DNA of 64,000 nucleotides from positions 11,456,001-11,520,000 of the forward strand of contig CP068257.2 of the NCBI GenBank assembly GCA_009914755.4, in the 5' to 3' direction. Each line of letters starts with the position of its first letter. The first letter of the stretch is position 1. The stretch is from the human T2T-CHM13v2.0 reference genome, Homo sapiens. Under the pieces are notes generated by a model. The model was not told where the DNA came from, ran no database searches, and saw only the letters and a list, made by a program, of their open reading frames with translations. Below, one piece after another: positions 33,216 through 39,424 of the stretch. The translations under genes were made by a program, and so were the position numbers.

Positions 33216-34442
33216 TCTCAATAGCCATTTTGAAATATTTCAAGGAAATATATTTTGGGGTAAAATATATTAGTTTCCTTCATACAGCTATAAAACATGC
33301 AGGAATAATTTTTCTCAATATCTACTACAAATCCAATATAGCAGTAATTATAAAACCCACCAGATATTGAAGAAAAAATATGTAGAGTACATCACTCACA
33401 AATATTGATACTAAAATGCCAAATAAAATAAAAATAATATCCAACAATATTTGAAACAGTAAGACAAGAAATTGGCAAAAAAAATAAAACAAATATCCAC
33501 CTTGGGGATGAAAGTGTGATTCCAAATTTGGTAATCCAATAATATTAATGATATATTGGTTAGCCCAAATAAAAAATAAATAGGGGATTCTCAGTACACG
33601 CTAAAATATATTTGTTAAAAGGTCATATTCATGTCTTTAAAGATTTTAAATGCTATAAAGAGTCTGATATTCTATACGCAAACATGTGTATGTCCATTAG
33701 AAGAACAGAGGCCTGATTTTCATATGTTACTACATAGAGGTAGAGAAGTGGATAGATTAATTTGCATATGCATAGAGAAAGCATAAAATATAAATTTACT
33801 ATCATACTTAAAGGAATATAAATTCAACATAAAATAATTCAAAGGTACAATTTTAAATATTTTTAAGTTACATTATTAATATTAGATAATATTTATAATT
33901 GTGAAAATATTCAATGCTAAAATAAGATAGAATGTCTAAACGTCAGTATTAAAACTAGTATAAATATTTGCTGGTTTTTACAAGGAAAATTCAAGCTCAA
34001 CCTAAAATTATATAGGAAATAAAAGAAAAATTTTAAGGGAGCTCTTTAATAACACAAACATATATATATATACACACACACATATAACATGCATATATGT
34101 TATATGGGATAGATATAGATTTAACATGTTATATCTATATTTGTATCTATCTATAACTACAGCTGTATGTATCTACCTTTCTATATATTTACTCAGTGAT
34201 ATAAATATAGACTGGAATAAATATAAAGGCACATATGATTCTTGGATAAAAAGGATTTAGTATCATAAAGACAAATTCTTTCCAAATTCACCTATGAATC
34301 CACAACAATATACAGTTTCATTAGTATAATTTAAAATTTTTAAATAAATTCCAAGATTTATTTAAAGGAATATACATGTATACCAGCAGTAAAGAAAGAA
34401 GTAAGAGTGCACTAAACTAACTTGCTATTAAAATACATTTTT

Positions 34443-36183
34443 CCTAATTGAATACCTTTTATTTCCTTCTCCTGCCTGATTGCTCTGGCCAGAACTTCCA
34501 ACACTATGTTGAATAGGAGTGGTGAGAGAGGGCATCCCTGTCTTGTGCCAGTTTTCAAAGGGAATGCTTCCAGTTTTTGCCCATTCAGTATGATATTGGC
34601 TGTGGGTTTGTCATAGATAGCTCTTATTATTTTGAAATACGTCCCATCAATACCTAATTTATTGAGAGTTTTTAGCATGAAGGGTTGTTGAATTTTGTCA
34701 AAGGCTTTTTCTGCATCTATTGATATAATCATGTGGTTTTTGTCTTTGGCACTGTTTATATGCTGGATTACATTTATTGATTTGCAGATATTGAACCAGC
34801 CTTGCATCCCAGGGATGAAGCCCACTTGATCATGGTGAATAAGCTTTTTGATGTGCTGCTGGATTCGTTTTGCCAGTATTTTATTGAGGATTTTTGCATC
34901 AATGTTCATCAAGGATATTGGTCTAAAATTCTTTTTTTGTTGTGTCTCTGCCTGGCTTTGGTATCAGAATGATGCTGGCCTCGTAAAAAGAGTTAGGGAG
35001 GATTCTCTCTTTTTCTATTGATTGGAATAGTTTCAGAAAGAATGGAACCAGTTCCTCCTTGTACCTCTGGTAGAATTCGGCTGTGAATCCATCTGGTCCT
35101 GGACTCTTTTTGGTTGGTAAGCTATTGATTATTCCCACAATTTCAGATCCTGTTATTGGTCTATTCAGCGATTCAACTTCTTCCTGGTTTAGTCTTGGGA
35201 GGGTGTATGTGTCGAGGAATGTATCCATTTCTTCTAGATTTTCTAGTTTATTTGCGTAGAGGTGTTTGTAGTATTCTCTGATGGTAGTTTGTATTTCTGT
35301 GGGATTGGTGGTGATATCCCCTTTGTGATTTTTTATTGCATCTATTTGATTCTTCTCTCTTTTTTTCTTTATTAGTCTTGCTAGCGGTCTATCAATTTTG
35401 TTGAACCTTTCAAAAAACCAGCTTCTGGATTCATTAATTTTTTGAAGGGTTTTTTGTGTCTCTATTTCCTTCAGTTCTGCTCTGATTTTAATTATTTCTT
35501 GCCTTCTGCTTGCTTTTGAATGTGTTTGCTCTTGCTTTTCTAGTTCTTTTAATTGTGATGTTAGGGTGTCAATTTTGGATCTTTCCTGCTTTCTTTTGTG
35601 GGCATTTAGTGCTATAAATTTCCCTCTACATACTGCTTTGAATGCGTCCCAGAGCTTCTGGTATGTTGTGTCTTTGTTCTCATTGGTTTCAAAGAACATC
35701 TTTATTTCTGCCTTCATTTCGTTATGTACCCAGTAGTCATTCCGGAGCAGGTTGTTCAGTTTCCATGTAGTTGAGCGGTTTTGAGTGAGATTCTTAATCC
35801 TGAGTTCTAGTTTGATTGCACTGTGGTCTGAGAGATAGTTTGTTATAATTTCTTTTCTTTTACATTTGCTGAGGAGAGCTTTACTTCCAAGTATGTGGTC
35901 AATTTTGGAATAGGTGTGGTGTGGTGCTGAGAAGAATGTATAATCTGTTGATTTGGGGTGGAGAGTTCTGTAGATGTCTATTAGGTCCACTTGGTGCAGA
36001 GCTGAGTTCAATTCCTGGGTATCCTTGTTGACTTTCTGTCTTGTTGATCTCTCTAACATTGACAGTGGGGTGTTAAAGTCTCCCATTATTAATGTGTGGG
36101 AGTCTAAGTCTCTTTGTAGGTCGCTCAGGACTTGCTTTATCAATCTTGGTGCTCCTGTATTGGGTACATATATATTTAGGATA
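34443..36183 (-). mobile_element. L1PA insertion, inverted 5' segment: ORF2 from the EN domain to the RT motif preceding FADD, on the minus strand
   Basis: Minus-strand track ORFs 34923-36143 ([28 protein letters not shown]…[35 protein letters not shown]…) and 34412-34912 (…[40 protein letters not shown]…[21 protein letters not shown]) are L1 ORF2p. The segment ends on the plus strand as ttttcctaattgaatacc, the reverse complement of ggtattcaattaggaaaa (GIQLGK). Confidence 0.9.
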
Positions 36184-38180: not shown

Positions 38181-38260
38181 TGTTACAGAATGTTTAGTGA
38201 CTAGAAATACAATGATAATGTCCAATAAATAAATATATTTTACAAAAAATAAAATAAAAT
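38181..38260 (+). other. Probable short 3' transduction plus a second A-rich tail belonging to the L1 insertion at 34443-38260
   Basis: Non-L1 sequence gatgttacagaatgtttagtgactagaaatacaatgataatgtccaataaataaatatattttac, followed by aaaaaataaaataaaataaa, lies between the L1 A-tail and the right-hand copy of the 13-bp target-site duplication aaaatacattttt (34430-34442 and 38261-38273). Confidence 0.5.
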
Positions 38261-39424
38261 AAAATACATTTTTAAACTTAGTAACTAAAACTGAGCAGTA
38301 CTGATTTGGAGTAATGGAATTTAGGTATATGAGATCTCAAAAGCATAGAGCTCAAAGGAGACCCCTGTATGCATGAGAGCTTAGGATGTGCTTTAGAAGG
38401 CATTACCAAACCACGGGCAAAGTTACTTTGGTTTCTTAGTCTTACTAGGTTTGAAAAGCCAGAGAAAAGACTCAAGGCCACCATATAAGAGCAAAACAAA
38501 AGGACAGGGAGAGAATGTGAAGATACTGAAACATTTTACATAAAGTTGTATAAAACATACTTTAAAGAAAATGTAAAGTTTAGGATATACATCAAAATCA
38601 GCAGAACCACTAAATAAATAAATAGGAATTGTAAAAAAGCAAGAGAAAATTTAAATGGATTTCTAAAAAATATTGACACCTATGATTTTTAAAATATGTT
38701 TAAGATATCCCATATTTCACAGGGCAGCCTTTCACAACATATATTAGGACATAAAGGTCCTTCTGTTTTTAATTTACTAGTGTTTATAGGGTTACAAATG
38801 TCTTCTACCCTTGTCTTTTGTCTGATGGTGCAAAAAAATTTTCATAAGCATGTACTTTTGAATGCCTGATGGATTGACATATATAATATGCTGCTAGTAT
38901 TAAAATATATGACGGAAAACGCATGCAATCTTCTCACTGTTTACATAAATTCTAGGTTTCTCCTATTTACCTCAAGCACGTATGGAGCGAATTCTTACCT
39001 TTTAATATTGCCATGGCATTCACATTGAACGTAAGTTGAACTCTCTTATATGGTAGCTGGGTTCAGATTCCCTTGACAATTTCCAGTTCTAACCCTCACA
39101 GTTCCTCAGTGTGGCTGGCCCAGATATTGATCCTACACAGCTGCCTCCTCCTGGTGACTAGCCACTGTGGAACCATTGGATACAACCTACCTGACTCACC
39201 CCACAGACCTCACAGCCCACTTGGACAGCCCCCACAAGCCAGAGTGACCTGCTCAGTTGCAGCTGCAGCCAAGAAATGTGCCTGCTGGCACTCACCCCAC
39301 TGACCAGAGCCCCGTGGAAAACTTATTTGGGTAATGTTCTGGGCCCAATAAAGGCTGGAGTCCCACAGACCCCTTTTCTGTCTCTTGCTCCCCACTCATC
39401 TTCCCCATTTTCTTCAGCCCTACG

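What the first reader, a model, noticed from the sequence alone, without database searches (positions are those of the whole stretch)
34430..38273. Twin-primed (internally inverted) L1PA insertion with a probable 3' transduction and 13-bp TSDs
Left part (34443-36183) is L1 ORF2 on the minus strand, covering from the EN region (…[21 protein letters not shown]) to the RT motif GIQLGK. Right part (36184-38180) is L1 on the plus strand, starting at the immediately following residues [10 protein letters not shown] and running to the 3'UTR and tail. The inverted block therefore ends in L1 coordinates where the direct block begins. This is the classic twin-priming topology. After the first A-rich tail comes ~65 nt of non-L1 sequence (gatgttacagaatgtttagtgactagaaatacaatgataatgtccaataaataaatatattttac) and a second A-run. 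The whole insertion is flanked by aaaatacattttt at 34430-34442 and 38261-38273. A transduced tag would allow the source L1 to be traced.
Basis: partly seen in the sequence, partly recalled or inferred. Interest (0 to 1): 0.6.

Follow-up and report, generated by a model that had tools for sequence, protein, structure and literature searches.

The report
Ordinary twin-primed L1 insertion with tag
This is a dead, 5'-truncated primate LINE-1 copy whose front half was inserted backwards by the well-known "twin priming" variant of retrotransposition. It probably carried along about 65 bases of DNA from beside its parent element, so it is a clean textbook case and not a new kind of feature.

Summary

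- **Two L1 blocks.** 34443-36183 (minus strand) encodes L1 ORF2 residues 111-692. 36184-37929 (plus strand) encodes residues 694/695-1275, followed by the 3'UTR to 38134.
- **Junction.** Measured against a full-length L1 elsewhere in the window, only 4 nt of L1 (GAGG) are missing between the two blocks. The TTTT that ends the 5' target-site duplication (TSD) is complementary to the AAAA in L1 where the inverted block begins. That is the priming microhomology twin priming predicts.
- **TSD and cut sites.** AAAATACATTTTT (13 nt after the cut; 14 nt match exactly) flanks the whole unit and occurs nowhere else in the 64 kb. The bottom-strand cut site is a perfect TTTT/AA and the top-strand site is TTTTT/AAA.
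- **3' end.** Between the element's A-rich tail and a second A-run lie 65 unique nt, with AATAAA 14 nt before the second A-run. The TSD follows that second A-run. This anatomy fits a short 3' transduction.
- **What is not shown.** The source L1 and the empty site could not be reached, because no primate genome is available through these tools. A nested mini-retrocopy or an RT template switch therefore remains possible for the 65 nt.
- **Subfamily.** L1PA2/PA3-like.

Both phenomena are common (about 20% and about 25% of L1 insertions). This is already known and of low interest.

The parts
34430..34442 (+). 5' target-site duplication AAAATACATTTTT. The preceding T at 34429 also matches, giving a 14-nt exact match. 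On the bottom strand the nick site reads 5'-TTTT/AA-3'.
   Evidence: only two copies in the window, one at each boundary; shuffle p<0.001
34439..34442 (+). TTTT at the 3' end of the TSD, complementary to AAAA of L1 (last base of ORF2 codon 691 plus codon 692). This is the microhomology at the internal (second) priming site.
   Evidence: the alignment of the inverted block to the in-window L1 extends 4 nt into the TSD
34443..36183 (-). Inverted L1 block (1741 nt) covering ORF2 residues 111-691/692: the end of the EN domain, the linker/tower and most of the RT. It carries one frameshift near residue 520 and has no tail of its own.
36184..37929 (+). Direct L1 block, from ORF2 residue 694 (partial codon)/695 to 1275 plus the TGA stop. 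There is a 1-nt deletion near residue 720. Base 36183 (A) is shared with the inverted block as 1 nt of junction ambiguity.
37930..38134 (+). L1 3'UTR, ending ...AAAGTATAAT. The diagnostic triplet is AAG (GAG with CpG decay), which indicates L1PA2 or older. The state at the Ta-specific G position is A.
   Evidence: PMC7026601 for the ACA/ACG/GAG diagnostics
38135..38178 (+). First A-rich tract (about 76% A, with irregular T, TT, TTT and G interruptions). It is inferred to be the genomic tail of the source element, transcribed by read-through.
38179..38243 (+). 65 nt of unique non-L1 sequence (23% GC), the putative 3'-transduced flank of the source L1. It contains AATAAA at 38224-38229 (and again at 38228), 14 nt before the second A-run.
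38244..38260 (+). Second A-rich tail, AAAAAA(TAAAA)n, which is the actual poly(A) of the inserted RNA.
38261..38273 (+). 3' target-site duplication AAAATACATTTTT. The top-strand nick site reads TTTTT/AAA.

Best explanation
This is a single germline L1 retrotransposition event, from an L1PA2/PA3-like element in a primate genome, that proceeded by target-primed reverse transcription with twin priming.

Inferred sequence of events:
1. L1 endonuclease nicked the bottom strand at 5'-TTTT/AA-3', on the left edge of AAAATACATTTTT.
2. The T-rich 3' end primed on the poly(A) of an L1 transcript. That transcript had read through the element's own weak poly(A) signal and had been polyadenylated about 110 nt downstream, after an AATAAA in the source's flank. 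It therefore carried the source's genomic A-tail plus 65 nt of flank, which is a 3' transduction.
3. This first cDNA ran back to ORF2 nucleotide about 2081 (codon 694).
4. The top strand was cut 13 nt away at TTTTT/AAA. Its ...CATTTTT-3' end annealed to AAAA at ORF2 nucleotides 2073-2076 of the same RNA, 4 nt upstream of where the first cDNA stopped.
5. From there it primed a second cDNA that ran to ORF2 nucleotide about 330 (codon 110/111).
6. Joining the two cDNA ends, with 1 nt of overlap, produced TSD - inverted 1741 nt - direct 1951 nt - tail - tag - tail - TSD.

What is shown and what is inferred: the L1 identities, the coordinates, the 4-nt gap, the microhomology, the TSD and the cut-site motifs are shown. 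The order of events and the read-through origin of the 65 nt are inferred.

The copy lacks the 5'UTR, ORF1 and the first 110 ORF2 codons, is inverted internally and is frameshifted. It is inert.
For: ORF2p coordinates come from PDB alignments: inverted block 111-528 and on to 692, direct block 695-720 and 721-1275.

Nucleotide alignment to the in-window full-length L1 shows the inverted block ending at ref 24311 and the direct block starting at ref 24316. Only GAGG is missing, and 4 nt (AAAA/TTTT) are shared between L1 and the TSD.

The 14-nt exact flanking repeat is unique in 64 kb and reached in 0 of 3000 shuffles. The reconstructed empty site...gctatt/AAAATACATTTTT/aaactt..., gives TTTT/AA on the bottom strand and TTTTT/AAA on the top strand. 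The consensus is 5'-TTTTT/AA according to PMC7026601.

Both blocks diverge equally from the older L1 (5.7% and 5.3% at non-CpG sites). They have similar private amino-acid change against L1HS (16/582 and 18/581).

The 65 nt are unique and non-L1. AATAAA lies 14 nt before the second A-run. The first tail has 11 non-A bases in the 46 nt counted, far more than the 1-2 expected for a once-pure poly(A) at this element's age. That fits a genome-encoded source tail (inference).

Literature: 5' inversions occur in 18-22% of L1 insertions, and 46% of these have the two cDNA ends within 20 bp (PMC12016303). [quoted passage not shown] Inversion rates are 21-46% among transducing sources (PMC13009371).
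Against: The source locus (a full-length L1 followed by this 65 nt) and an orthologous empty site were not seen. All five collection scans were empty and the exact-protein look-up found nothing.

An 8-nt low-complexity repeat, TAAAATAA, at 38171-38178 and 38250-38257 could serve as the TSD of a separate mini-insertion into the tail.

A-rich tails mutate quickly, so the degeneracy of tail 1 is only weak evidence.

The subfamily call rests partly on remembered L1HS sequence and on one in-window reference, not on a curated consensus library.
Confidence: 0.8

Rival explanations
1. Twin-primed L1 insertion without transduction. In this reading the 65 nt plus a short A-run are a later, separate, severely 5'-truncated retrocopy (the 3' end of some polyadenylated RNA) that landed in the L1's A-rich tail.
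For: A possible 8-nt TSD, TAAAATAA, lies at 38171-38178 and 38250-38257. AATAAA lies 14 nt before the A-run, as an mRNA 3' end would have. A/T-rich tails contain L1 endonuclease sites.
Against: The putative TSD is low-complexity sequence expected by chance in two A/T tracts. The nested insert's own tail would be only 6 A. The prior chance that a 65-nt retro-fragment hits a roughly 60-nt tail is far lower than the roughly 25% transduction rate (PMC13009371).
Confidence: 0.07
2. Chimeric retrocopy formed by RT template switching. TPRT began on the poly(A) of an unrelated cellular RNA, copied its last 65 nt, then jumped to the poly(A) tail of an L1 RNA. Twin priming followed as in the main explanation.
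For: This gives the same linear anatomy: L1 - A tract - foreign 3' end with AATAAA - A tract - TSD. L1 chimeras with other RNAs are documented (bioRxiv 10.1101/2025.02.02.635956, listed; the paper was not read).
Against: A jump onto a fresh poly(A) tail would give an initially pure A tract. Tail 1 is strongly and irregularly interrupted (11 non-A in 46). Such chimeras are much rarer than transductions, and a switch after only 65 nt is required.
Confidence: 0.05
3. The 65 nt are ordinary flanking DNA, the true TSD lies before them, and the 13/14-nt repeat is coincidental.
For: A 9-nt match, ATTAAAATA, at 34427-34435 and 38169-38177 ends the first tail.
Against: A 9-nt match arises in about 8% of shuffles, and this one is not adjacent to the L1 5' end, since 7 nt intervene. 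The 14-nt match is exactly adjacent to both ends, is unique in 64 kb and was never reached in 3000 shuffles. It also follows an A-run preceded by AATAAA.
Confidence: 0.02
4. Two independent L1 insertions in opposite orientation, or a post-insertion chromosomal inversion of the 5' half of one L1.
For: Adjacent opposite-strand L1 fragments are common in primate DNA. Nothing specific at this site supports this reading.
Against: The minus-strand block ends in mid-ORF2 with no 3'UTR, no poly(T)/poly(A) and no TSD of its own. The two blocks abut within 4 nt in a 6-kb element, a coincidence of about 0.3% or less. They show equal divergence. An inversion would need one breakpoint exactly at the L1/flank boundary.
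Confidence: 0.02

Closest known systems
L1 5'-inversion by twin priming (Ostertag & Kazazian 2001, Genome Res 11:2059; cited via PMC12016303)
   Same: A 5' segment inverted relative to the 3' segment. [quoted passage not shown] The top-strand 3' overhang is complementary to the internal priming site. The cut sites match the EN consensus.
   Different: Nothing qualitative. Both cDNAs (1741 and about 1950 nt) are longer than the germline medians reported (751 and 571 nt) but within the normal range.
L1 3' transduction (Moran 1999; Goodier 2000; Pickeral 2000, from memory; short transductions in PMC13009371)
   Same: L1 3'UTR, then an A-rich tract, then unique non-L1 sequence with a canonical AATAAA, then a second poly(A), then the TSD. 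The 65-nt length falls in the dominant under-100-bp class.
   Different: The defining link to a source element was not established here. This is an old fixed L1PA copy, so the source may itself be degraded or lost.
L1PA2/L1PA3 subfamilies of primate LINE-1
   Same: A GAG-type 3'UTR triplet (decayed to AAG). The L1HS-like 3'UTR variants GCTAGATGAC...TTAGTGGG...GCGCACCAGC, in contrast to the older in-window copy. About 95% amino-acid identity to L1HS ORF2p, with about 40% of the differences being retained ancestral states.
   Different: An exact subfamily was not assigned, because no consensus library was available.

Membership tests
LINE-1 (L1PA) insertion made by TPRT | Sequence homologous to L1 ORF2 and 3'UTR | tested here: met
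   PDB ORF2p alignments with E=0 and 6e-263; 93% nucleotide identity to an in-window full-length L1
LINE-1 (L1PA) insertion made by TPRT | 3' poly(A) tract and flanking target-site duplication | tested here: met
   A-rich tails at 38135-38178 and 38244-38260; 13/14-nt exact TSD, p<0.001
LINE-1 (L1PA) insertion made by TPRT | Insertion at an L1 EN consensus site (5'-TTTT/AA) | tested here: met
   The reconstructed empty site gives bottom-strand ...GTATTTT/AATAGC
Twin-priming 5' inversion | The 5' L1 segment is inverted relative to the 3' segment, with the TSD-adjacent end of the inverted segment being its 3'-most L1 coordinate | tested here: met
   At 34443 the inverted block is at ORF2 residue 691/692, and at 36183 at residue 110/111
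Twin-priming 5' inversion | [quoted passage not shown] | tested here: met
   Ref 24311 against 24316: a 4-nt gap (GAGG), or 8 nt if the microhomology is assigned to the TSD
Twin-priming 5' inversion | A single TSD pair encloses both segments, and the inverted segment has no tail or TSD of its own | tested here: met
Twin-priming 5' inversion | Complementarity between the top-strand 3' end at the target and the internal priming site on L1 RNA | tested here: met
   TTTT (34439-34442) against AAAA in GGAAAAGAGG of L1. It is only 4 nt of A/T, so it is supportive and not decisive.
Twin-priming 5' inversion | Both segments come from one RNA, so they share subfamily and age | tested here: met
   93.1% against 93.4% identity and 5.7% against 5.3% non-CpG divergence to the same reference; private amino-acid changes of 2.7% against 3.1%
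L1 3' transduction | Unique non-L1 sequence between the L1's own A-tract and a second poly(A), with the TSD after the second poly(A) | tested here: met
L1 3' transduction | A polyadenylation signal 10-30 nt upstream of the second poly(A) | tested here: met
   AATAAA at 38224-38229, with the A-run starting at 38244
L1 3' transduction | The transduced sequence lies immediately 3' of a (full-length) source L1 elsewhere in the genome | not testable with these tools
   There is no copy in the window. Scans of genome, metagenome and viral collections were empty. No primate genome is accessible.
L1 3' transduction | The orthologous empty site in an outgroup lacks both the L1 and the tag | not testable with these tools
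   No primate assemblies are reachable; the exact-protein look-up was not on record

The most novel reading that the evidence does not exclude
The 65-nt segment is not a read-through transduction but the 3' end of a cellular polyadenylated RNA, joined to L1 RNA by ORF2p template switching. That would make this a three-template event: a foreign RNA, then the L1 poly(A), then internal twin priming, all in one insertion. Alternatively, if it is a true transduction, the tag could identify a progenitor L1PA2/3 locus and its sibling copies.
Probability: 0.06. Interest if true: 0.25.

Novelty: already known. Interest (0 to 1): 0.08.

Why it matters
It matters little beyond annotation. It is a very clean illustration of twin priming: a 4-nt gap, a 4-nt primer microhomology and EN-consensus motifs at both nicks. 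It shows that RepeatMasker-style paired opposite-strand L1PA fragments should be merged into one event. The 65-nt tag could be used to trace a source L1PA lineage if the genome were searched. Thousands of comparable insertions exist in primate genomes, since about 20% of L1 insertions are inverted and about 25% carry transductions.

Tried and rejected
1. Tracing the 65-nt tag. Exact-pattern scans with 23-32-nt pieces gave no hits in genome contigs (two scans), metagenome contigs (two scans) and viral contigs (one scan). These collections hold essentially no primate DNA.
2. Exact-protein look-up of the 522-aa open frame at 36361-37929, to recover the locus or its orthologues. It is not on record.
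3. Rfam scan of the whole window. Nothing reached gathering thresholds.
4. Testing whether the in-window full-length L1 (about 20127-26285) could be the source. It is rejected: it is an older subfamily (82-89% against about 95% amino-acid identity to L1HS) and its 3' flank has no similarity to the tag.
5. Considering the 9-nt ATTAAAATA as an alternative TSD before the tag. It is rejected as chance-level and not adjacent to the L1 5' end.
6. Ostertag & Kazazian 2001 (PMC311219) is not held in the library. Twin-priming features were taken from PMC12016303 instead.
7. Exact subfamily assignment was not possible without a consensus library. The ORF2p coordinates for residues 111-528 and 721-1275 were checked against PDB entries; those for 529-692 and 695-720 rest on the memory-typed guide and the in-window L1 alignment.
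Full report
**Observation.** The window is primate-type DNA. It contains at least 13 Alu copies and a full-length L1. At the stated coordinates the sequence contains two L1 ORF2-derived blocks on opposite strands.

It placed 36185-36262 and 36262-37926 (plus strand) on residues 695-720 and 721-1275.
- I checked these coordinates for the two long segments against solved human ORF2p structures. 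The minus-strand translation of 34929-36182 aligns to residues 111-528 of 8sxt/8uw3 (E=6e-263), beginning [21 protein letters not shown]. The plus-strand translation of 36262-37926 aligns to residues 721-1275 (E=0) and runs to the natural C-terminus ...SLIGGN.
- The reverse complement of 34439-34470 reads E-I-K-G-I-Q-L-G-K. 36185 onward reads [17 protein letters not shown].

**Breakpoints at nucleotide resolution.** The window holds an older full-length L1 on the plus strand, at about 20127-26285. Its 5'UTR motif is at 20132, ORF1 at 21160-22167 and ORF2 at 22234-26052. I used it as an uninterrupted reference.

- The direct block 36183-38156 aligns to ref 24316-26284 (93.4%). The inverted block 34439-36183 aligns to ref 24311->22562 (93.1%).
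- In register, L1 reads ...GGTATTCAATTAGG-AAAA-GAGG-AAGTCAAATTG... The inverted block ends at ...CAATTAGG(AAAA). The direct block starts at AAGTCAAATTG. Only GAGG is absent.
- The bracketed AAAA is the complement of the TTTT that ends the 5' TSD (34439-34442). It can therefore be assigned either to L1 or to the target. This is what is expected if the top-strand 3' end ...CATTTTT-3' annealed to the L1 RNA and primed the inverted cDNA.
- At the internal junction, base 36183 is shared by both blocks as 1 nt of ambiguity.
- In ORF2 CDS numbering, the inverted block covers about nt 330-2072 (2076 with the microhomology) and the direct block starts at about nt 2081.

**Ends of the insertion.** The 14-mer TAAAATACATTTTT is exact at 34429-34442 and 38260-38273.

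- These are its only two occurrences in 64 kb. A match of 14 nt or more to the 20 nt upstream of the L1 never occurred in 3000 shuffles of the 300-nt 3' flank, and a match of 13 nt or more occurred in 0.07%.
- The reconstructed empty site is ...cttgctatt/AAAATACATTTTT/aaacttagtaac.... The bottom-strand nick is therefore 5'-...GTATTTT/AATAGC-3', a perfect TTTT/AA. The consensus is 5'-TTTTT/AA according to PMC7026601. The TSD proper is 13 nt.
- The top-strand nick is TTTTT/AAA, which is also EN-like.
- The minus-strand block has no 3'UTR, no A/T tract and no TSD of its own.

**Same event for both blocks.** Three measures agree.

- Non-CpG divergence from the older L1 is 5.7% for the inverted block and 5.3% for the direct block.
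- Amino-acid differences from L1HS ORF2p are 24/582 and 32/581. Of these, 8 and 14 are ancestral states shared with the older L1, and 16 and 18 are private.
- For two unrelated fragments of a 6-kb element to abut within 8 nt by chance has a probability of about 0.3% or less (inference).

Together with the single TSD pair, this rules out two independent insertions. It also makes a post-insertion inversion unnecessary.

**Subfamily.** The 3'UTR triplet used to separate Ta (ACA), pre-Ta (ACG) and L1PA2-or-older (GAG) (PMC7026601) is AAG here, in the context GACAAGTT. The older in-window L1 has GACGAGTT. The element therefore has GAG with a CpG transition, which means L1PA2 or older.

Its 3'UTR otherwise carries L1HS-like variants (GCTAGATGAC, TTAGTGGG, GCGCACCAGC) that the older copy lacks. 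The roughly 2.9% private amino-acid change implies roughly 1.3% neutral nucleotide divergence (inference). This is in line with L1PA2/L1PA3; the ages of about 7-13 Myr come from my memory of Khan et al. 2006. No consensus library was available for a firm call.

The copy has frameshifts near ORF2 residues 520 and 720 and lacks everything 5' of ORF2 codon 110. It is inert.

**The 3' end.** The layout is as follows.

| Feature | Coordinates |
|---|---|
| L1 body ends ...AAAGTATAAT | 38134 |
| First A-rich tract | 38135-38178 |
| Unique non-L1 segment (65 nt, 23% GC) | 38179-38243 |
| AATAAA | 38224-38229 and 38228-38233 |
| Second A-run, AAAAAA(TAAAA)n | 38244-38260 |
| 3' TSD | 38261-38273 |

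- The first A-rich tract is about 76% A, with irregular T, TT, TTT and G interruptions and a 16-nt two-copy repeat.
- The 65-nt segment has no similarity to L1 or to anything else in the window.
- Because the TSD follows the second A-run, the 65 nt arrived with, or inside, the insertion.

The most economical reading is read-through of the L1's weak poly(A) signal, with polyadenylation at the downstream AATAAA: a short 3' transduction. The literature retrieved here says about 25% of L1 insertions carry transductions. [quoted passage not shown] Sources that transduce show 21-46% 5'-inversion rates (PMC13009371).

The strongly interrupted first tract fits a genome-encoded, already aged source tail better than a fresh poly(A). 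This is weak evidence, because A-tracts mutate fast.

**What could not be shown.** The defining proof of a transduction is the tag sitting directly 3' of a source L1. The decisive control is the empty site in an outgroup. Both need a primate genome, and none is reachable.

- Five exact-pattern scans of the genome, metagenome and viral collections returned nothing.
- The exact-protein look-up of the 522-aa open frame was not on record.

Two rivals for the 65 nt therefore survive at low probability.

- A later nested mini-retrocopy in the tail. A possible 8-nt low-complexity TSD, TAAAATAA, lies at 38171-38178 and 38250-38257, but the insert's own tail would be only 6 A.
- An RT template switch from another polyadenylated RNA onto the L1 poly(A).

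The reading that the 65 nt are ordinary flank, with a TSD before them, rests only on a 9-nt ATTAAAATA match. That match is at chance level (about 8% of shuffles) and is not adjacent to the L1 5' end.

**Comparison with the known, and verdict.** Every testable defining feature of a TPRT L1 insertion and of twin priming is met.

- 5' inversions occur in 18-22% of L1 insertions. In 46% of these the two cDNA ends lie within 20 bp, and a majority of those have a gap and not an overlap (PMC12016303).
- This element has a 4-nt gap. Its cDNAs are somewhat longer than the reported medians (1741 and about 1950 nt).
- The transduction is structurally typical but unproven at the source level.

Nothing departs from established L1 biology. 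The finding is real and correctly interpreted, and it is ordinary. Novelty: already known. Interest: low.

Noticed in passing
window 20127-26285 (+): A full-length older L1PA copy. The 5'UTR start motif is at 20132, ORF1 at 21160-22167 (86% aa to L1HS ORF1p) and ORF2 at 22234-26052 (82-89% aa, several frameshifts). The 3'UTR triplet is GAG and the tail is (TAAAA)n. I used it as the nucleotide reference. It is not the source of the 65-nt tag.
   Followed up: partly
window 9331-9609 (+) and 9685-9968 (-): Two near-full-length Alu elements in inverted orientation, only about 75 bp apart. This is a potential long hairpin or dsRNA-forming pair if transcribed.
   Followed up: no
The Rfam gathering scan reported none of them as 7SL-related.
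   Followed up: no
window 45419-45871 (-), 47599-48536 (+), 49339-49533 (+): Older LINE fragments. The first is an EN-domain-like stretch at 28% aa identity. The second is an ORF2 C-terminal stretch at 52%. The third is a short piece (the last 65 residues of ORF2) at 88% identity, next to an Alu.
   Followed up: no
window 34427-34435 and 38169-38177: A 9-nt match, ATTAAAATA, between the 5' flank and the end of the first A-rich tail. It is chance-level (about 8% of shuffles) but could mislead TSD callers into ending the insertion before the 65-nt tag.
   Followed up: yes
window 38132-38165: The first A-rich tail contains a 16-nt unit (AATAAAAAAAATTAAA) in about 2 copies, suggesting slippage or duplication within the tail.
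   Followed up: no
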